Assembly: GCA_965261545.1 (NCBI GenBank)
Contig: CBDHDF010000007.1
Span: 160,001-224,000 of the forward strand
From: Bdellovibrionales bacterium
Lineage (GTDB): Bacteria; Bdellovibrionota; Bdellovibrionia; Bdellovibrionales; UBA1609
Direction: 5' to 3'
DNA length: 64,000 bases
Of this stretch, positions 941-57,288 are shown one piece after another. Position numbers and translations under genes: made by a program. The notes beneath the pieces are model-generated. The model made no database searches. It was not told the origin of the DNA and worked only from the letters and a program-made list of their open reading frames with translations. The first letter of the stretch is position 1, and each line of letters opens with the position of its first letter.

Positions 941-2464
941 GTGTCTATGGGCAAACAAGGTAAGAAAAAAGGAGCAAGAATGATCAACAATATTAAGAAA
1001 TACATAGAGCTTGGACTCAGTTCGAGACAAATAGCTCGAGCTATGGGTGTTAGTCGGAACACTGTGAAGAAGTATGTGAAGGATAGTCCCGGAGGCCCTA
1101 ACAGCCGCTCAAAGGGGTCGCATGGGCCCTACCAAGCCCCATGGTCATCCAAGGTGAATTGGACAGATGTTCGCCTCAAACAAAGCCTAGGGACTCAATT
1201 AGCTCATTACTGGGAGCGACATATTCAGTCCGAGATTGACGGTGTGAGTTATCTTTCTTTTTGGAGAGAGTTTCGTCGGAGGCACCCAAGTATAAAGCTT
1301 GATATGCACCAGACATTCACCCCTGGTGAACGGAGTGAGTTTGACTATAAGGGAAAAGACTCTTGTTTTGGCTATACAGATGCCAAGACTGGGGAGTTCA
1401 TCCAATGTCGATTATTTGGGATGATACTTCCATCGAGTCAGTTTTTCTTTCCCTGCGCCACATTAACAGAGCAGCGGGAAGATGTTTTTTCCTCCATAGC
1501 TTCTGGTTTTGAGTTTTTTGGTGGTGTGACCGGAACCATTGCTTTTGATAACGCAAAGGTTCAAGTGACAAGAGCTGATACTTATGATCCCGATATTAAC
1601 TCTGAGTTTCACCTCTTGTGTGATCACTACAATGTGGCTCCTTTGGCGATGAGGCCATCTCATCCCAAAGACAAGAGTCTTATCGAAAATACCCTTGGAG
1701 TCTTTTGGCGCTGGTCTTGGCCCCAGATAAGAGAGCGACAAATGTATTCTCTAGCAGACATCAACGCTGAGTTGAAGCATTTGGCAGCTATTTTCAATGA
1801 TCGTATTCAAAAAAAGTATGGGTTGAGTCGTCGACAGAAGTTTGAATCTTTTGAGAAGTCAAAATTGAATCCTCTTCCTGAAAGACGCTATGAGAGTGGA
1901 TTCTGGAAGCATGCCAAGGTTCATCCGGATTGTCACATTCAATATAACTACAATTTTTACTCTGTTCCTTATAAGCATCGCGGCAAGAAATTAGATATTC
2001 GTATTAGCCAACAATGCTTGGAGGTTTATTCAGAATTAGAGCGGGTGGCGATACATCACATCCCCCAGGGCAGTCGAGGGCGCTACTTTACGACAAAATC
2101 TCATCTCCCTGAGTCCCACCGGGCCATTTTAGAGCAAACGCCACAAAATGTACTTAAAGAGGCATCAAGCCTTGGAGAAAGCATTCACAAAGTTGCCGAG
2201 CGGCTTATCAAAGAGCCTCGCCATCCGCTTATGTATCTTCGTCGTGTTCAGGGGATACTCAATCTAAGAAAACGGTATTCAACAGCTTCTTTGGAGCAGG
2301 CTTGCTCATTTTTTGTAGATGCAGCTTTAAGTGACATTAGGGTTCGTGGAGTTGAGAAAGTCATTTCAGCAAAAAGTCATCGAAAAGAGGAGCCAAGAGT
2401 CTGCCGTCAACCTAATGAAAATTTAAGAGGTTCAGAGCACTGGGAGAATGCTTGCCGCCACTAA
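941..2464 (+). CDS. istA: IS21 transposase IstA
   Basis: N-terminal HTH (SSRQIARAMGVSRNTVKKY), PGERSEFDY, FDNAK, PKDKSLIE DDE motifs, YSVP motif. Confidence 0.95.
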   Translation: MSMGKQGKKKGARMINNIKKYIELGLSSRQIARAMGVSRNTVKKYVKDSPGGPNSRSKGSHGPYQAPWSSKVNWTDVRLKQSLGTQLAHYWERHIQSEIDGVSYLSFWREFRRRHPSIKLDMHQTFTPGERSEFDYKGKDSCFGYTDAKTGEFIQCRLFGMILPSSQFFFPCATLTEQREDVFSSIASGFEFFGGVTGTIAFDNAKVQVTRADTYDPDINSEFHLLCDHYNVAPLAMRPSHPKDKSLIENTLGVFWRWSWPQIRERQMYSLADINAELKHLAAIFNDRIQKKYGLSRRQKFESFEKSKLNPLPERRYESGFWKHAKVHPDCHIQYNYNFYSVPYKHRGKKLDIRISQQCLEVYSELERVAIHHIPQGSRGRYFTTKSHLPESHRAILEQTPQNVLKEASSLGESIHKVAERLIKEPRHPLMYLRRVQGILNLRKRYSTASLEQACSFFVDAALSDIRVRGVEKVISAKSHRKEEPRVCRQPNENLRGSEHWENACRH

Positions 2465-2545
2465 TCACATAGCCCCGGTGGGTGGTTCTCAACCACCTAA
2501 CGGGTCATTTTGACCTCCATAAGAGAGGTCGTATAGGAGAAGAAA

Positions 2546-3274
2546 ATGATTAAACAAACAGAAAATTTATTAGAGATATTAAAAATGAGGGGAGTTTTAG
2601 CAACCTTGAGCCAGAGGCTCAAAGAAGCTGAGGAGCAGGATCTTGGTTACGAGGACTTTCTAAATGTCATCTTTGAGGACGAAAAAATCCATCGTGACAA
2701 TCAGAAGGTCTTAAGACTTATCAAAAGAGCAGCTTTGAAGCAAAAAGCAAGCCTTGAGGCCTTTGAAACCAAGCCCAGCCGAGGAGTCGATCGAAGAGTT
2801 TTGAGTGATCTAGCCCTTATGAGATTTGCTCAAAGAGGTCAAAATATAATTATCTCTGGCCCAACAGGTGTTGGAAAGTCATATTTGGCTTGTGCCATAG
2901 GCAATCACGCCTGTCGCCAGGGTTTTTCCACTCAGTTCTTCAGAATGAATACTCTTGTTGAAAAATTCAACTTAGAAAGAGCCCAGGGGACATATCTAAA
3001 CTTCCTTAAAAGGCTAAAATCAATCTCTATACTTGTGTTGGATGACTTTGGTATCAAACCCCTTACCTCCAGCCAATATCAAGACCTTTACGATGTGATT
3101 GATGAACGAGGCCCTGACCTGAGCCTCATTCTTACAACCCAACTTCCAATAAAAAATTGGAGTGAAGTCATTGGGGATCCCATCGTTTGTGAAGCTATTA
3201 TGGATCGCATAACCTCTCAAGCTATCAAAATAGCCATGTCTGGAAGCTCATTTAGGCAGAGAAAGACGATTTAA
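2546..3274 (+). CDS. istB: IS21 helper AAA+ ATPase IstB
   Basis: Walker A GPTGVGKS, Walker B LVLDDFG, AIMDRI. Confidence 0.95.
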   Translation: MIKQTENLLEILKMRGVLATLSQRLKEAEEQDLGYEDFLNVIFEDEKIHRDNQKVLRLIKRAALKQKASLEAFETKPSRGVDRRVLSDLALMRFAQRGQNIIISGPTGVGKSYLACAIGNHACRQGFSTQFFRMNTLVEKFNLERAQGTYLNFLKRLKSISILVLDDFGIKPLTSSQYQDLYDVIDERGPDLSLILTTQLPIKNWSEVIGDPIVCEAIMDRITSQAIKIAMSGSSFRQRKTI

Positions 3275-3350
3275 GGAGAATCCATGCAAAAGCAGACCTT
3301 AGAAGACACCATCAGAAGACACTCCATCGGAACTATTGAATCATGTACCC

Positions 3351-3448
3351 GCCAGTTATCCACAAAATTTACCCACGGCAGCGCTGCGTTGATAGACATC
3401 GGGGTCACAGACGCAGCGTCACCATGGATAAATTTGTGGATAACTGGC
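3351..3448. repeat. ~98-bp imperfect palindrome with DnaA-box-like 9-mers, copy 1
   Basis: GCCAGTTATCCACA...TGTGGATAACTGGC; related copies at 26332 and 62319. Confidence 0.85.
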
Positions 3449-3729
3449 TCGCTATTCTCTGCCATTTTGAGCCATGGGTTCAACATCCCCATCGAAAAAC
3501 CCTCCATTGAAACCTCAAAAATGGGAAGGGCCGAGATTCTCAATGACAAAGTGGCCAATTTTAGTTGGCATCTAACATTCTGGCAAATAAGCCTTAACCC
3601 ACCGTTGGGACATCGTGACATTGAGGGTGTAAAAGTTACTGAGTCAGCAGAAAAAAGAAGGTTTAAATTGACAAAGTTTGAGCCACCGTGAAATTCAAAA
3701 TTGGACCTCAAATTGACTGACTGAGGGGT

Positions 3730-5146
3730 CAATGCCGTTTCCTTAAGCCACCACACCCCTCTGCCTCTGCGTTAAGCTATTTCTTTTAAAAGAACTCCCA
3801 GCCCTTTTGATAGACCTTTCATAGCTTCTTTTGAAGTGCCTCCTCTTCTCCATTGAAATCTTCATCAGCAACTTTATCTGCTTCCTAAATTTCTGATAGA
3901 GCCCCGCAACAAAAAGAGGGATGCTATCCATTATGAAATCAAGAATCAGTTTAAAGTTAGGTTTTTTGTAGTCATTTTTCACCAACTGATTCACACTGTC
4001 TTCATCCTCATTTATGCTCATTTGAATCTTTGTATAATTGAAGAGCCAAAAATAAGAATACAGCTCTTGCAATATTCCATTAAGGCTTGTTGAGTGCCAC
4101 TGCTCCATTTTCATTGTCGATGTAAAATCACGAAATGTCGTTTCTATTTCCCAACGACGAGAGTAAAGAGCAACCATATCCTTCTTGTCCAAGGAGCCAT
4201 GCGGAAGATTAGTGGCCAAAACAGAGAACTCCCCAGTCTTTGGGTTTTTATACTTATAGAGATGAATGACCACCCCCTCAATAACCATTTGTGAATACCA
4301 ACCTGGGCCATTAAATAAATTTACGATGGGGATAAAAGTAGAGCCTCGCTTACAACGCGCAATAAAGAAGTTACTGGCTTGAGCATGGGCCTTAATAATC
4401 TCTGTAGATAAATAAAGCCTATCGTAGAGAGTTATGCTATTACTCTCAAAACTACCTATCATTTGAATAGCATTGGCGATTTCGTTGAGAGCGGGAGAAT
4501 AGCAAAGATTCTTTGTCACACCCGATAAAACGTCATAAGCATGAGATAGATACATACGTAAGAAATGAGTTTCCATCTCATTTGGGCAAGGGTACCCACA
4601 ATAACCCTCCTTTAAAAGATCTTTAGAGCGAGGAAGTGCTAATTGGTCGCCATCTATGGCATAGATATAAAAACCATGAAACGTTTTTCTCAATGGTTCG
4701 TAGTCTGTAATCAGAGATTCAAAGATATCTTTGAAAAATAGGTAAGAAATACTTTGACGTATCTTGCTGAGACTGCTTTTGACTGGCATGAGAAGCAGGT
4801 CACCAAAATGAGTCCATACCGTCTTAAGAGCGATTTGGTAGCCTTCGTAATTTGTTCCTGAAATAAGATAGATAATGGTAAAAAAGAAAATTTGAGGATT
4901 AAATTTTCGATTCCTTTTTTGTTTTTCTGGATCGACAAGGTGCTCTGGCTTGAAGGAAGAATCAAGTTTTGGTAGAATAAAATGGTCATCTGTGACGCGA
5001 ACTCGTCATTTGGGGGCTTTCGAGATCAATATTGGATTGCATGTGACTTACTCCTTGGTTGAGGGTTGGGTGTAAAATAAAACAAGTCTTATTCTTGTCG
5101 ATTTATCTAATGATTTCAAGAGATTTTTCTTAAGGAAACGGCATTG
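3730..5146 (-). mobile_element. IS4-family element, copy 1 (no TSD)
   Basis: Perfect 18-bp IRs CAATGCCGTTTCCTTAAG (3730) and CTTAAGGAAACGGCATTG (5129-5146); near-identical to the copy at 9405. Confidence 0.9.
3743..5042 (-). CDS. IS4-family DDE transposase; the RBS-linked start (5042) is out of frame with the main frame (3743..5005)
   Basis: AIDGD, YDRLY, YSRRWEIETTFRDF (YREK-like); AAGGAG upstream of ATG 5042 opens only 18 codons. Confidence 0.8.
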
Positions 5147-5234
5147 CCCCCTGAATAGATAGAGCCTGTAAACTATTTTGTGTAACTGCCGAATCATATT
5201 AGGATGAACTATCATCCTGAAAGGAGAAGGCAGA

Positions 5235-7063
5235 ATGGATATCAAGACAATGTGTGCCACGAAGTCACGGAGGTGACATGCTGATGTGAAGATGGAGGTA
5301 GGTCCTCCGCACTCGGATTTCAGGATTTGAGTGCAAACAACCTTGCTGCTGCATGGGAGGCAAGGCCCTTGTAGTGAGCGAGCAAGGAAAAGGCCGTAGT
5401 AAACGGTCATGTAAGTACTAGGGAGATGAGCGAAAGCAAACCCACCGACGACGCATCGAAAGATTAACAGTCGCGTCAAAACCGAAGGAAGGTTGTCTCC
5501 GTCGGGATAAGTCTAGAGGAAGCCTGATGACCGATCTAGACGGCGTGCGGTGTATAGGGGGCATGAACCTAGTACAGGCTTCGTATCGGAACGTGGGAAC
5601 CTGCTGGTGGATGATAAGGGAAACGCTATAAGGGAGACCCCCGAAGTGCTAAATACCGATGCCACCAACCAGGGGCAGAGTGATTCGTAGTAGTGATGAA
5701 GTTCTTGTAATGAGAATGGAGCGAAGGGGTCACATGATTTATGGAAGTAGTCAGGCCAACTTGGTTATGCTGAGGAGGAGCCTAATGAAACGGAAAATCA
5801 TAGGAGCCGTGTGAGGGGAGACTTTCAAGCACGGTTCTGTGAGGGGCAGTGGGGGAAGTTCCCACTGCCTACTCGATAGGCAAGGAACTAGCGAAGAACG
5901 TCAAGACCCAAAAGGATTTATCCGACATAACGGGTCAACTGATGAAGGTTGTTTTAGAGACAGCTCTTAATGCGGAAATGGACGATCACCTAGGTTATGA
6001 GAGGCATGAGAAGTCTGAGACCCGCAAATCCAACACTCGCAATGGTTACAGTAGAAAGACCATAAAGGGAGAGAAAGGCGAGGTGGAGCTTCAGGTCCCC
6101 CGTGACCGAAGTGCCTCCTTTGAGCCCCAAGTCATTCCCAAAGGCAAGACTCGTCTTGAGGGCTTTGAAGACAGTATTCTGACCCTCTATGCGAGGGGAA
6201 TGACGACCAGGGATATTCAAGGAGCTATCAAAGACCTCTACCATGGTGCAGAGATATCCCACTCAGTGATAGCCAACGTGACGGATGCTGTTATTGATGA
6301 AGTTACGGCTTGGCAGAACCGCCCCTTGGATAGCACTTACCCTATCGTATTTTTGGACTGTATCGTGGTGAAGGTCCATCAAGACAAGAGAGTTATTAAT
6401 AAGGCGATTTACCTAGCTCTTGGTATTACAGAGGAGGGTCAGAAAGACTTGTTGGGCCTATGGATTTCTGAAAATGAGGGTTCAAAGTTTTGGTTGAGTG
6501 TTTTGACTGAGCTGCAAAATCGAGGGTTGAAAGACGTATTTATATTTTCTGTAGATGGTCTTACAGGTTTTCCTCAAGCCATTTCAGCGGCTTTTCCCAA
6601 GTCTAAAGTGCAACTGTGCATTGTCCATATGGTCCGCAATTCCCTTCGCTATGTTCCTTCCAAGGATATGAAAGCTGTCGCCCAAGACCTCAAGTCCATT
6701 TATGGCTCTACGACTCTGACAGAAGCTGAAAAGGCCCTTGAGGAATTTTGTACCAAGTGGTCTTCCAAGTATCCGAATATTGAAAAGTCTTGGCGTAGGA
6801 ATTGGGACAATCTCATCACTATTTTCGATTATCCGGATGAAATCAGAAAGATTTTTTATACCACAAACGCCATAGAGTCGTTAAATAGCGTGATCCGCAA
6901 GGCGATCAGAAATCGTAAGATATTTCCCAGTGATCGGTCGGCTTTAAAAGTTGTATATTTAGCGATAAAAATGGCCTCTAAGCGATGGACACGACCATTA
7001 CACAACTGGAAGCCAGCCATGAACAGGTTTGCCATTGAATACGGTGACCGTTTTGACAACTAA
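5235..7063 (+). CDS. IS256 transposase, join(5235..5251,5878..7063), 400 aa after splicing
   Basis: AAGGAG RBS and ATG at 5235; spliced N-terminus MDIKTIGKELAK; NTRNGY, VPRDR, FLDCI, DGLTGF, CIVH, TTNAIESLN motifs. Confidence 0.9.
5252..5877 (+). ncRNA. ORF-less group II intron (IIB-like), 626 nt
   Basis: 5' GTGTG; 34-nt domain V GAGCCGTGTGAGGGGAGACTTTCAAGCACGGTTC (5804-5837) with AGC triad; domain VI hairpin with bulged A (5871); 3' AT; EBS1 GTTGTC (5492-5497) in a hairpin loop complementary to exon IBS1 GACAAT. Confidence 0.92.
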
Positions 7064-7152
7064 GTTTTTTAATAAATAAGGTCCCCTTATAAGAGGGCTT
7101 AAAAGCCCTCTTAGGCGTTGACAGAAATGCTGGAATACGAGACTATGGTTAA

Positions 7153-7343
7153 GGGTAATATAGTATGGGAACCTAAATACATGCCCTCTTGGGCAGACTT
7201 GGGTTTCCATTTTTTTTCATATTTCATCCCAATGCTGGTATTTCTCGAATATCCCAAGTTAAAAAAAATAAAAAAAGGGGGTAATATAGTATGGGAACCT
7301 AAACACATGAACCCTTTGATGAGATTGGAATTTCCATTTTTTT
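7153..7343. repeat. Two ~65-bp imperfect direct repeats (126-bp period) in the IS256 3' region
   Basis: GGGTAATATAGTATGGGAACCTAAAYACATG...TTTCCATTTTTT at 7153 and 7279. Confidence 0.8.
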
Positions 7344-7506
7344 GAGAGAGCTATTGCTGATTTTTTTCCAACCAAGATGATAATTATTTATTTGAGTTCT
7401 TTCCAGTTCTGATATGATCCCATTACGGCTCCATGAGGTGGACCCCAATGTCAGACTGAAAAACTTGATTTTTAAGCTACACCACAGCGCACAAAGAAGC
7501 CCCGTG

Positions 7507-8355
7507 TTAATGTGTTAAATCCACCTCTCCCATATGCACCTGATAAGGGGTGCAATCCTGAAGAGACTGGTGTGGCCTTTTATTATTATAAAAATTAAAA
7601 TACGTTTTAAAACCTTTGTTGGCTTGAACCATTGATTTGTCTTGATAGCCTTTCAAGTAAACCTCTTCGTACTTAACAGACCGCCAAAGCCGCTCGATCA
7701 TAATGTTGTCTAAACACCTGCCTTTGCCGTCCATACTGATCGAGATTCCATGATTTTTCAATAATTTTGTGAAAACCTCAGAAGTGAATTGGCACCCTTG
7801 ATCAGTATTGACGATATCAGGGCAACCAAATGTTTCTATGGCTTCCTCAAAGACTTCTAAACAAAAAGTTGTCTCAAGGCTATTAGAAAGTCTCCAAGAC
7901 AGAACAAATCGGCTAAACCAATCTATCACAGCTACCAAGTAAGCAAAGCCACCAGACAACCTTATAAAAGTAATATCAGTAGCCCACACTTGGTTGGGGG
8001 AGCAGATATTAAGCCCCTTAAGTAGGTAGGGATAAACCTTATGCTGATGGTTTCGCTGACTGGTGTTTGGACCTGGGAAGATAGCGAAAAGACACATCTT
8101 TTCCATGAGCCGCTGAATCCTCTTGCGGTTGACCCCATGGCCATTAAGTCTTAAGTGAGCTGCCATTTTACGGCTCCCATAAAAAGGGGTCTCCAAGTAC
8201 TGTTTGTCAATTAAACTCATCAGTTTTAAGTTGTAGGCACTCTCAGGTATGGGCTTGTAGTACAAGGCTCCCTTAGAGAGTCCTAGCAACTCACATTGGC
8301 GAGTGACACAAATATTTGGATGTTTCCAATTGATAGCGGCTTTTTTCTCAGGCAT
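7507..8355 (-). CDS. IS3 OrfB (rve integrase core)
   Basis: [37 protein letters not shown]. Confidence 0.95.
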
Positions 8356-8638
8356 TGAAGCTCTCAGATTTTTTTTTTAACCAATCATTTTCAACCTTTA
8401 ACTGCCCTATTTGCCGATACAATTCATCAATGGTTTTTCTTTGTTCTTCTACCTCGTTGTTGTCCTTTTTTTTGCTCGCTAAGGCCTTAGGAATGGCTTC
8501 AATAGCTTGCTTCTTCCAATCTTGGATTTGGATGCGGTGAACTCCATGCTTGGAGGCCAACTCTGCCATTGTGTCAGTCTCACGAATGGCGTCAAGTGCG
8601 ACTCTGGCCTTAAATTGTGCGCTGTGTTTCTTTCTCAT
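8348..8638 (-). CDS. IS3 OrfA (HTH)
   Basis: [14 protein letters not shown]...[12 protein letters not shown]10 run near the end. Confidence 0.93.
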
Positions 8639-9076
8639 TATCCCCTCCTATGAGGGGCTTTTTACCCGCTGCGGTGTAACTTAGCAACCAGTCTGTTTTT
8701 GGGGTCCACTATACCATCTCCCCATTAAATTATAATGCATTGTGACTGACAAAATCGCTTGAAGGAAAAAATGTCAATTATACATTGACGAATAATATGG
8801 AGCTGTGCTTTTTACCAGGAGTGGAGCCACATAAGTGGCTTTAAGATTTAAGAAAAAAATTGCAGTTACACAATTATTTTTACAGTCCCAATAGATACAA
8901 TATCACAATGAATGAGACATATAGGATTTTTTCTTGACTCTATTGCGGTTTGAGTAGCCTTAGGCCAAAGATACCACAGGAGGATGAGCTAACTGCACAA
9001 TCAGAACTTAACGCACTCCTAAACTTGAATATGGTTAACAAAAAGTAAGAAAAGATGGTCTAAATAAAGTATTGGA

Positions 9077-9262
9077 TCACACCTTCCACAAATGGCTGGT
9101 TTTAACCCTCCCTCCCATCGGTGCTCTGTCCGCAGTACCAAGTCCATTAATTACGTGTAGCTCCAGATTCACTTTTGGAGATTTGTAGACACAATTTTGA
9201 AATAGAAATAATGGTATGGAAAAAAAGAGAATTAATAAGACAATTTGTATTTTCCTTTTCAT
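9077..9262 (-). CDS. Small hypothetical protein with an FQNC lipoprotein-like signal, possibly a remnant
   Basis: MKRKIQIVLLILFFSIPLFLFQNC preceded by a GGAGG RBS. Confidence 0.35.
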   Translation of the reverse strand: MKRKIQIVLLILFFSIPLFLFQNCVYKSPKVNLELHVINGLGTADRAPMGGRVKTSHLWKV

Positions 9263-9417
9263 TGTGACCTCCGTACGTATTGGGTCAAAAGTAAAGTGAC
9301 TTATCACTTTTATTATAACAATCTGATATGCTTGGGTCAATATAAACCTTACTCGCAATATTGTATTTGCAACATTTCATGCAATTGTTTCATTCACTAT
9401 GACTCAATGCCGTTTCC

Positions 9418-10717
9418 TTAAGCCACCACACCCCTCTGCCTCTGCGTTAAGCTATTTCTTTTAAAAGAACTCCCAGCCCTTTTGATAGACCTTTCATAGC
9501 TTCTTTTGAAGTGCCTCCTCTTCTCCATTGAAATCTTCATCAGCAACTTTATCTGCTTCCTAAATTTCTGATAGAGCCCCGCAACAAAAAGAGGGATGCT
9601 ATCCATTATGAAATCAAGAATCAGTTTAAAGTTAGGTTTTTTGTAGTCATTTTTTACCAACTGATTCACACTGTCTTCATCCTCATTTATGCTCATTTGA
9701 ATCTTTGTATAATTGAAGAGCCAAAAATAAGAATACAGCTCTTGCAATATTCCATTAAGGCTTGTTGAGTGCCACTGCTCCATTTTCATTGTCGATGTAA
9801 AATCACGAAATGTCGTTTCTATTTCCCAACGACGAGAGTAAAGAGCAACCATATCCTTCTTGTCCAAGGAGCCATGCGGAAGATTAGTGGCCAAAACAGA
9901 GAACTCCCCAGTCTTTGGGTTTTTATACTTATAGAGATGAATGACCACCCCCTCAATAACCATTCGTGAATACCAACCTGGGCCATTAAATAAATTTACA
10001 ATGGGGATAAAAGTAGAGCCTCGCTTACAACGCGCAATAAAGAAGTTACTGGCTTGAGCATGGGCCTTAATAATCTCTGTAGATAAATAAAGCCTATCGT
10101 AGAGAGTTATGCTATTACTCTCAAAACTACCTATCATTTGAATAGCATTGGCGATTTCGTTGAGAGCGGGAGAATAGCAAAGATTCTTTGTCACACCCGA
10201 TAAAACGTCATAAGCATGAGATAGATACATACGTAAGAAATGAGTTTCCATCTCATTTGGGCAAGGGTACCCACAATAACCCTCCTTTAAAAGATCTTTA
10301 GAGCGAGGAAGTGCTAATTGGTCGCCATCTATGGCATAGATATAAAAACCATGAAACGTTTTTCTCAATGGTTCGTAGTCTGTAATCAGAGATTCAAAGA
10401 TATCTTTGAAAAATAGGTAAGAAATACTTTGACGTATCTTGCTGAGACTGCTTTTGACTGGCATGAGAAGCAGGTCACCAAAATGAGTCCATACCGTCTT
10501 AAGAGCGATTTGGTAGCCTTCGTAATTTGTTCCTGAAATAAGATAGATAATGGTAAAAAAGAAAATTTGAGGATTAAATTTTCGATTCCTTTTTTGTTTT
10601 TCTGGATCGACAAGGTGCTCTGGCTTGAAGGAAGAATCAAGTTTTGGTAGAATAAAATGGTCATCTGTGACGCGAACTCGTCATTTGGGGGCTTTCGAGA
10701 TCAATATTGGATTGCAT
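9418..10717 (-). CDS. IS4-family transposase, copy 2, with the same split N-terminus
   Basis: Near-identical to 3743..5042 (one Q/R difference in the main ORF). Confidence 0.8.
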
Positions 10718-10892
10718 GTGACTTACTCCTTGGTTGAGGGTTGGGTGTAAAATAAAACAAGTCTTATTCTTGTCGATTTATCTAATGATTTCAAGAGATT
10801 TTTCTTAAGGAAACGGCATTGAGGTGGACCCCAATGTCAGACTGAAAAACTTGATTTTTAAGCTACACCACAGCGCACAAAGAAGCCCCGTG

Positions 10893-11741
10893 TTAATGTG
10901 TTAAATCCACCTCTCCCATATGCACCTGATAAGGGGTGCAATCCTGAAGAGACTGGTGTGGCCTTTTATTATTATAAAAATTAAAATACGTTTTAAAACC
11001 TTTGTTGGCTTGAACCATTGATTTGTCTTGATAGCCTTTCAAGTAAACCTCTTCGTACTTAACAGACCGCCAAAGCCGCTCGATCATGATGTTGTCTAAA
11101 CACCTGCCTTTGCCGTCCATACTGATCGAGATTCCATGATTTTTCAATAATTTTGTGAAAACCTCAGAAGTGAATTGGCACCCTTGATCAGTATTGACGA
11201 TATCAGGGCAACCAAATGTTTCTATGGCTTCCTCAAAGACTTCTAAACAAAAAGTTGTCTCAAGGCTATTAGAAAGTCTCCAAGACAGAACAAATCGGCT
11301 AAACCAATCTATCACAGCTACCAAGTAAGCAAAGCCACCAGACAACCTTATAAAAGTAATATCAGTAGCCCACACTTGGTTGGGGAAGCAGATATTAAGC
11401 CCCTTAAGTAGGTAGGGATAAACCTTATGCTGATGGTTTCGCTGACTGGTGTTTGGACCTGGGAAGATAGCGAAAAGACACATCTTTTCCATGAGCCGCT
11501 GAATCCTCTTGCGGTTGACCCCATGGCCATTAAGTCTTAAGTGAGCTGCCATTTTACGGCTCCCATAAAAAGGGGTCTCCAAGTACTGTTTGTCAATTAA
11601 ACTCATCAGTTTTAAGTTGTAGGCACTCTCAGGTATGGGCTTGTAGTACAAGGCTCCCTTAGAGAGTCCTAGCAACTCACATTGGCGAGTGACACAAATA
11701 TTTGGATGTTTCCAATTGATAGCGGCTTTTTTCTCAGGCAT
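10893..11741 (-). CDS. IS3 OrfB
   Basis: Near-identical to 7507..8355. Confidence 0.95.
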
Positions 11742-12024
11742 TGAAGCTCTCAGATTTTTTTTTTAACCAATCATTTTCAACCTTTAACTGCCCTATTTGC
11801 CGATACAATTCATCAATGGTTTTTCTTTGTTCTTCTACCTCGTTGTTGTCCTTTTTTTTGCTCGCTAAGGCCTTAGGAATGGCTTCAATAGCTTGCTTCT
11901 TCCAATCTTGGATTTGGATGCGGTGAACTCCATGCTTGGAGGCCAACTCTGCCATTGTGTCAGTCTCACGAATGGCGTCAAGTGCGACTCTGGCCTTAAA
12001 TTGTGCGCTGTGTTTCTTTCTCAT
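11734..12024 (-). CDS. IS3 OrfA
   Basis: Identical protein to 8348..8638. Confidence 0.93.
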
Positions 12025-56661: not shown

Positions 56662-57139
56662 AAATTATCAAGAATAAAATATTATCAAAGTGGAATTATT
56701 CAATAGTTCCATCCTAAATTGAATTGTGAATTGTTCAACTTATTTTGACACACCTCCTTAGTTTTGGACCTAGTTCAAACTCTGGGGAATTCAATTACGT
56801 AACAAAGCAAGTTTCATATATAAATATACAAATGAGACAAGCACAAGAGACGTGATCTTTATTGAGACAAAATCAATTTTTACTAGACTTTGGTAGAATC
56901 CCTTAGTATCCTTAAAATTAAGAAGCAGCATGATAAAGATTAAGAAATATATATAAGAATACGAAACCAATAAGAATTACGAAATAAAATTAAAGACTCC
57001 ATGGACCGAAGGCTTTGACGAGTGGCCTAAGGGTCCTAGCAAAAGAAGAGAAGCGGCACAAGGAAGTGCTAAAGTAGAACGTATATGCAAAAGGAGGTGG
57101 CACGAAAAAATAAAGCTAACTTCGGGCAATTCCTTTCTT

Positions 57140-57220
57140 TGATCAAGGCAAACTAGGGGAAACACTAGGACGCAAAACTAAGGAGCTAAGGTCGTGGATG
57201 ACTAAGCTTGCCAGTTGCCA
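57140..57220 (+). ncRNA. c-di-GMP-I (GEMM) riboswitch aptamer
   Basis: GGCAAAC-stem-GAAA-stem-GACGCAAAAC...GCTAAG...CCAGTTGCC consensus. Confidence 0.85.
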
Positions 57221-57288
57221 GAGAAAACTGATTATTGGCTTTGAAATAAAATGGAAGGATATGACCGGGGAACAATACATATCCCTGT

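What the first reader, a model, noticed from the sequence alone, without database searches (positions are those of the whole stretch)
5235..7063. ORF-less group II intron splits an IS256 transposase at codon 6: a possible splicing-gated transposon
Seen: a 626-nt ribozyme (GTGTG start at 5252, canonical DV/DVI, AT end at 5877) lies between an RBS-ATG exon (ATG GAT ATC AAG ACA AT) and the rest of the transposase. Removing it gives an intact 400-aa frame, MDIKTIGKELAK.... The EBS1 loop GTTGTC pairs 6/6 (one G-U) with IBS1 GACAAT, so the intron fits this exact site. The IS keeps both IRs and an 8-bp TSD. Known: bacterial group II introns usually encode an RT/maturase and often insert in IS elements, while ORF-less ones are uncommon. 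Inference: transposase expression depends on self-splicing or a maturase supplied in trans, and the intron may travel as IS cargo. The ORF track misses this by starting inside domain VI.
Basis: partly seen in the sequence, partly recalled or inferred. Interest (0 to 1): 0.85.

Follow-up and report, generated by a model that had tools for sequence, protein, structure and literature searches.

The report
Gene-less intron repeatedly invading IS256 transposase
A small self-splicing-type RNA element with no protein gene of its own has copied itself again and again into the same spot of a very common jumping gene, probably disabling those copies; it is a real but largely familiar case of one mobile element parasitising another, not a splicing switch for the transposon.

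Summary
In detail: a 626-nt ORF-less group II intron (5252-5877) splits codon 6 of an IS256 transposase, and removal gives a 400-aa frame identical to an intron-free copy. It is a class D-type (IIB, RmInt-like) ribozyme: 7-nt EBS1 pairs 7/7, EBS3 fits, EBS2 only 3/5. The 'splicing-gated, co-travelling transposon' reading fails: 59 IS256 junctions in the genome are empty (43 with an intact ORF) against 9-10 occupied loci. The six well-covered occupied copies are each 0-1 SNP from an empty copy but 2-5 from another occupied one, while 8 introns are identical: repeated independent retrohoming. The intron also sits in IS3, IS1634 and Rpn-like repeats and forms two head-to-tail pairs. Precedents: RmInt1 in ISRm2011-2, ORF-less TeI3 introns in ISEL1, tandem RmInt2. 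The scan noted this same intron elsewhere in this genome (as IIC, which I do not support) and like cases in other genomes. One loose end: the assembly holds no intact class D RT, only broken pieces; its intact intron RTs are of another RNA type. No RNA data: splicing untested. New member of a known kind.

The parts
5154..5161 (.). Left 8-bp target-site duplication (AATAGATA)
5162..5187 (+). IS256 left inverted repeat
   Evidence: 68 genomic copies of the left end
5222..5226 (+). Shine-Dalgarno-like AGGAG, 8 nt before the transposase ATG
   Evidence: read from sequence
5235..5251 (+). Transposase exon 1 (5 codons + 2 nt); holds IBS2 (5239-5243) and IBS1 (5245-5251)
5252..5877 (+). ORF-less class D-type (IIB) group II intron, 626 nt; 8 exact copies in the genome
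5462..5466 (+). EBS2 by position in the alignment (GAUUA); pairs 3/5 with this site
5482..5505 (+). Id3 stem-loop with 7-nt EBS1 at 5492-5498 (7/7 with IBS1, one G-U type pair)
5555..5555 (+). EBS3 (U); this column complements the first 3'-exon base in 6 of 6 aligned introns
   Evidence: with flanks
5774..5814 (+). Domain IV remnant: ribosome-binding site and 9-codon stub at the place where RT-coding relatives start their ORF
5804..5877 (+). Domain V (5804-5837, AGC triad) and domain VI with bulged A at 5871; in-frame GTG at 5849 lies inside the domain VI stem
5878..7063 (+). Transposase exon 2 (IS256 family)
7435..8713 (-). IS3-family element (ORFs 8348-8638 and 7507-8355) inserted in the IS256 3' tail; limits approximate
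8864..8889 (+). IS256 right inverted repeat
8890..8897 (.). Right 8-bp target-site duplication

Best explanation
A non-autonomous class D (IIB) group II intron that lost its RT gene but kept the ribozyme and the domain IV start region. It spreads by retrohoming with an RT/maturase borrowed in trans, and the start of the abundant IS256 transposase gene is its main landing site. Each insertion is a separate event that most likely silences that IS copy, apart from whatever low splicing occurs, while dozens of intron-free copies still make transposase. Re-homing at an already occupied 5' junction (EBS3 U pairing with the intron's first G) gives head-to-tail pairs. Shown: structure, boundaries, copy distribution, independence of insertions from haplotypes. 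Inferred: retrohoming as the route, the trans RT (most likely a class D RT now broken or missing from the assembly), low splicing.
For: 59 empty against 8 occupied 5' junctions and 9 occupied 3' junctions, 9-10 loci. 8 exact 626-nt copies. For the 6 occupied copies covered over at least 1,100 nt, the nearest of 45 full-length empty copies is 0-1 SNP away and the nearest well-covered occupied copy 2-5 SNPs. IS markers 18 nt upstream and 22 nt downstream of the site differ among occupied copies, against long gene-conversion tracts. Precise insertions in three other repeats whose empty alleles number 22 (IS3), 35 (IS1634) and 20 (Rpn-like), EBS1 6-7/7. Tandem junctions pair 7/7 plus U-G under the re-homing model against 5/7 for the alternative, as reported for RmInt2 (PMC4615759 passage). 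RT-coding introns found by this RNA encode RTs 48-57% identical to the S. meliloti GR4 419-aa IEP. RmInt1 splices at 0.07% in its IS host yet stays mobile (PMC3035460 abstract and discussion).
Against: No intact class D RT is in the assembly: only pieces with a stop, frameshift, IS insertion or truncation, and their RNA is only 56% identical to this intron, so the helper is unidentified. EBS2 pairs only 3/5 here. The three short occupied copies are uninformative on independence, and two occupied loci (C2:390224, C11:1057454) share one insertion point in an 11-copy repeat, so one passive duplication is possible. IS haplotypes are mosaic, so recombination blurs the comparison. The replication-strand test was inconclusive (6 of 8 against 34 of 55). 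IS256 preference over the other three repeats is not significant (9/68 against 3/80, p = 0.07). No RNA data.
Confidence: 0.82

Rival explanations
1. Splicing-gated, co-travelling transposon: the IS carries the intron as cargo and its transposase is controlled by splicing.
For: Precise removal restores an intact frame; the window copy keeps IRs and TSD; EBS1 and EBS3 fit; two occupied loci share a flank.
Against: 59 empty junctions, 43 with intact ORF; occupied copies are closer to empty copies than to each other; a TSD survives a later intron insertion, so it says nothing on cargo; the class D precedent splices very poorly in its IS host.
Confidence: 0.07
2. The intron is mobilised across classes by one of the intact resident RTs of another intron type, acting as a relaxed 'driver'.
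For: Three intact intron RT families pass TIGR04416 while every class D RT piece is broken; the ORF-less copies are identical while two class D RT copies differ at about 10 of 1,280 nt, so the burst looks younger than their decay; a second ORF-less class D-type family is also multi-copy.
Against: Those RTs are 29-35% identical to class D RTs and sit in a different RNA type (Rfam D1D4-6); published trans-mobilisation is between related introns; the assembly is 96.8% complete in 11 contigs, so an intact class D copy may be unassembled or recently lost.
Confidence: 0.12
3. The intron spread among IS256 copies by homologous recombination or gene conversion, with no RT needed after the first insertion.
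For: IS haplotypes are mosaic; a recombinant between the two ORF-less families exists at C2:463512; no intact cognate RT is assembled.
Against: Flanking IS markers about 20 nt on either side differ among occupied copies; precise insertions in unrelated repeats and tandem pairs need reverse splicing.
Confidence: 0.1
4. The occupied copy still makes a transposase without splicing, from the in-frame GTG at 5849 (404 aa, new N-terminus).
For: The frame is open and covers the whole IS256 profile.
Against: The GTG lies within the 11-bp domain VI stem and I saw no well-spaced ribosome-binding site before it (read from sequence).
Confidence: 0.05

Closest known systems
RmInt1 in ISRm2011-2 of Sinorhizobium meliloti (PMC3035460 abstract and discussion; PMC5894124 passages)
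   Same: Class D/IIB intron interrupting the transposase gene of a multi-copy IS, spreading by homing to empty IS copies and to ectopic sites; proposed to limit IS spread.
   Different: RmInt1 encodes its own RT and its host is an IS630-family element; this intron is ORF-less and its main host is IS256.
ORF-less TeI3 family F4 introns of Thermosynechococcus elongatus (PMC2882425, section 10 and passages)
   Same: ORF-less introns mobile in trans, several families with different EBS sequences, three copies at one conserved site of an IS (ISEL1); identical introns in diverged hosts read as independent insertions.
   Different: TeI3 are IIB1 introns closely related to intact resident RT introns; here the RNA is class D-type and no intact close RT is assembled.
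RmInt2 of S. meliloti GR4 (PMC4615759 passages)
   Same: Class D, imperfect EBS2-IBS2 at natural sites, EBS3 = U, head-to-tail double insertion attributed to U pairing with the intron's first G; a GR4 intron that I take to be RmInt2 (419-aa ORF, target sequence as in the paper) matches this RNA at 67%.
   Different: RmInt2 has an ORF and targets IS inverted repeats, not the transposase start.
IStrons (PMC4227781, search listing and start of abstract only)
   Same: An intron physically tied to an IS.
   Different: IStrons are fixed chimeras of a group I intron and an IS that move as one; here the group II intron is in a minority of IS copies and moves by itself.

Membership tests
Group II intron | Domain V with AGC triad, domain VI with bulged A, GUGYG start and AY end | tested here: met
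   Rfam RF00029 66 bits, RF01999 88.5 bits; ends fixed by empty alleles. The DV two-base bulge reads AA or AG rather than the consensus (alignment); effect unknown.
Group II intron | Splices through a lariat | not testable with these tools
   No RNA holder listed.
Subgroup IIB | EBS1, EBS2 and EBS3 pairings with the exons | tested here: met
   EBS1 7/7, EBS3 U-A, EBS3 column covaries in 6 of 6 introns; EBS2 present by position but only 3/5 paired.
IEP class D (RmInt-type) | Own IEP falls in the class D clade | not testable with these tools
   The intron has no IEP.
IEP class D (RmInt-type) | RNA homologous to that of class D RT introns | tested here: met
   61-64% identity over DI-DIV to L052, L053, L054; all 7 RT-coding loci examined that were found with this RNA (L052, L053, L055-L058, L064) have RTs 48-70% identical to the GR4 IEP.
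   No terminator-like site at 5050-5950; sites are inside coding sequences; 7-nt EBS1 and an EBS2 segment; nearest RT introns are class D.
Mobile ORF-less intron (TeI3-like) | Identical copies at several sites with matched EBS/IBS | tested here: met
   8 exact copies, four kinds of repeated target.
Mobile ORF-less intron (TeI3-like) | Closely related intact RT-coding intron in the same genome | tested here: not met
   Only broken class D RT pieces in the 96.8% complete assembly; absence from the organism is not shown.
IS256 family | Mutator-type DDE transposase, terminal IRs, 8-bp TSD | tested here: met
   NF033543 430 bits; IRs and TSD.
IStron-like co-mobile unit | Intron and IS inherited and transposed together | tested here: not met
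   59 empty junctions; occupied copies not each other's nearest relatives.

The most novel reading that the evidence does not exclude
Two ORF-less class D-type intron families are still spreading in a genome whose class D RT is dead, because an intact RT of a different intron class (29-35% identical, different RNA type) splices and mobilises them: cross-class retromobility, a shared splicing factor across group II lineages in a bacterium.
Probability: 0.12. Interest if true: 0.7.

Novelty: new member of a known kind. Interest (0 to 1): 0.3.

Why it matters
As it stands it is one more clean example of a non-autonomous intron using an IS as a landing pad, with an unusually good natural dataset (9-10 independent hits on 68 IS copies, tandem pairs, a second family and a recombinant). 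It would matter more if the helper RT proved to be of another class, since that would show relaxed maturase specificity across lineages, a step usually invoked for the origin of a common splicing machinery.

Tried and rejected
RNA evidence: no RNA holder listed. DNA contigs of 4 of the 7 listed runs (two studies) hold the intron and the empty junction; 84 pieces were not shown, so I draw nothing on occupancy in run X5; the break at 5462 in X5 coincides with a rearrangement point in the C2:236742 copy and is not taken as an EBS2 variant. Search for a close RT-coding parent: 0 matches for three patterns in four scans (metagenome contigs; GTDB contigs); 1 of 60 relatives with a short weak match; 10 of 400 phylum genomes with partial matches of 68-86%; plasmids best about 70%. 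Replication-strand bias: inconclusive, skew is scrambled. Promoter scan: no + strand sigma-70-like site at 5050-5950, uninformative. RT tree (14 rows): most inner branches weak; the class call rests on identities and RNA homology, and the class names of the three intact RT families were not determined. Literature: five searches listed no paper whose title or opening abstract describes an ORF-less group II intron in IS256, nor cross-class mobilisation; I did not open the five papers; Simon et al. 2008 (PMC2525955), the survey of bacterial ORF-less introns, is not held and may describe class D cases. No supplements were read. Rejected: IIC label, IStron-like unit, single inactivating insertion, TSD as evidence of cargo.

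Full report
Observation. The intron runs from 5252 to 5877 (626 nt) and matches Rfam group-II-D1D4-2 (88.5 bits) and Intron_gpII (66 bits); it folds at z = -4.2 against 20 shuffles. Removing it joins 17 nt of exon 1 to exon 2 and gives a 400-aa frame identical to that of the intron-free copy at C2:2737, an IS256-family transposase. The IS spans 5162-8889 with both IRs and the 8-bp duplication AATAGATA; an IS3 element lies in its 3' tail.

Anatomy and class. Alignment with related introns places EBS2 at 5462-5466, EBS1 at 5492-5498 and EBS3 at 5555. EBS1 pairs 7/7 with the last seven exon bases, EBS3 (U) with the first base of exon 2 (A), EBS2 only 3/5. The EBS3 column complements the first 3'-exon base in 6 of 6 aligned introns (U/A, A/T, U/A, A/T, G/C, G/C; with flanks read). 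Domain IV is reduced to a ribosome-binding site and a 9-codon stub where relatives start their RT. The RT-coding introns retrieved with this RNA carry RTs 48-70% identical to the 419-aa IEP of an S. meliloti GR4 intron that I take to be RmInt2, a class D intron according to PMC4615759 (passages). So the RNA is class D-type, subgroup IIB.

Distribution in the genome. Of 67 exon-1 sites, 59 are followed by exon 2 and 8 by the intron; 9 intron 3' ends are followed by exon 2. That is 7 loci with both junctions and 3 with one, 9-10 loci in all. Of the 59 empty junctions 43 have an intact 400-aa ORF. Eight intron copies are exact over 626 nt. Single precise insertions lie in an IS3 (antisense; 22 empty alleles), an IS1634 (sense; 35) and an Rpn-like repeat (antisense; 20), and four more 5' ends lie at sites for which no empty allele was found (three tested). 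Two IS256 loci carry head-to-tail pairs.

Homing or cargo. For the six occupied IS copies covered over at least 1,100 nt, the nearest of 45 full-length empty copies differs by 1, 0, 1, 1, 0 and 0 SNPs, the nearest well-covered occupied copy by 4, 5, 2, 4, 2 and 5. The three short occupied copies tie and tell nothing. IS markers 18 nt before and 22 nt after the site differ among occupied copies, which leaves little room for gene conversion. Identical introns in different hosts is the argument Mohr et al. used for independent insertions (PMC2882425 passage). Against: haplotypes are mosaic, and two occupied loci share one insertion point in an 11-copy repeat, so one passive duplication is possible. 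The tandem pairs fit re-homing at the occupied 5' junction (7/7 plus U-G) better than insertion at the 3' junction (5/7), the explanation given for tandem RmInt2. A replication-strand test (6 of 8 against 34 of 55, contigs over 100 kb) and a test of IS256 preference (p = 0.07) were inconclusive.

The helper. Thirty RT-domain matches were found. Three intron RT families have intact copies but sit in a different RNA type (Rfam D1D4-6) and are 29-35% identical to class D RTs. The class D RT is present only as pieces: one copy has an IS insertion, an internal stop and a cut domain I, another a frameshift and a 5' truncation; its RNA is 56% identical to this intron. The assembly is 96.8% complete, so the likeliest helper is a class D RT that is unassembled or lately lost; help from another class is not excluded. 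No close parent was found in collections. The review PMC4424553 (passages) says bacterial ORF-less introns are rare and nearly always have a related RT intron in the genome.

Effect on the IS. For this copy the native transposase frame needs splicing, which could not be tested (no RNA holder listed). RmInt1 splices at 0.07% in its IS host while staying mobile, and its authors read this as blocking the IS (PMC3035460 abstract and discussion; PMC5894124 passages). By analogy (inference) the insertion mostly silences the copy; with 43 intact empty copies there is no gate on the family. DNA contigs from two studies hold both the intron and the empty junction.

Comparison and verdict. ORF-less introns at a conserved site of an IS are described (three TeI3 F4 introns in ISEL1; PMC2882425 section 10), as are class D introns in IS transposase genes. 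Five searches of the held library listed nothing on IS256 as host of an ORF-less intron, but the main survey is not held. The scan has noted like cases in other genomes. Verdict: real, new member of a known kind; interest 0.3, with the unidentified RT as the one open point.

Noticed in passing
G000 C2:47262-47908 (L017) and about 7 other loci: A second ORF-less class D-type intron family (about 645 nt, 65-71% identical to this one) with different EBS1/EBS3 and its own targets; its domain V lower stem has two mismatches near the triad in all copies seen.
   Followed up: partly
G000 C2:463512-464144 (L006): Recombinant intron: 5' half from the second family, 3' half from this one.
   Followed up: partly
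G000 C11:346168-348328, C10:509088-511248, C2:263415: An RT-coding intron whose two seen 5' flanks resemble intron 3' ends; one copy sits directly behind the class D intron, one lies antisense inside the second ORF-less family, and a diverged copy is followed by IS256 exon 2, perhaps an older insertion behind an intron at the same IS256 site.
   Followed up: partly
window 7064-8863; reference copy C2:2737 positions 1277-1889: This IS256 has a 613-nt 3' tail without a long ORF, with a 65-nt direct repeat (85%) and a hairpin after the stop codon.
   Followed up: partly
window 941-12024: Dense nest of insertion sequences: IS21 (istA/istB), two IS4-like DDE elements, IS256, two IS3; many IS256 copies in the genome are inserted in other repeats.
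   Followed up: no
window 57137-57222 (+): c-di-GMP-I riboswitch, 74.5 bits.
   Followed up: no
L054 (CP157007.1, Methylomonas plasmid), about 1943-2600: Another ORF-less class D-type intron with matched EBS1 and EBS3.
   Followed up: partly
G000 C7:387877-389650 (L024): Intact RT intron whose domain V was not found by the RF00029 search although domain I matches D1D4-6; several short ORF-less-looking derivatives by BLAST.
   Followed up: no
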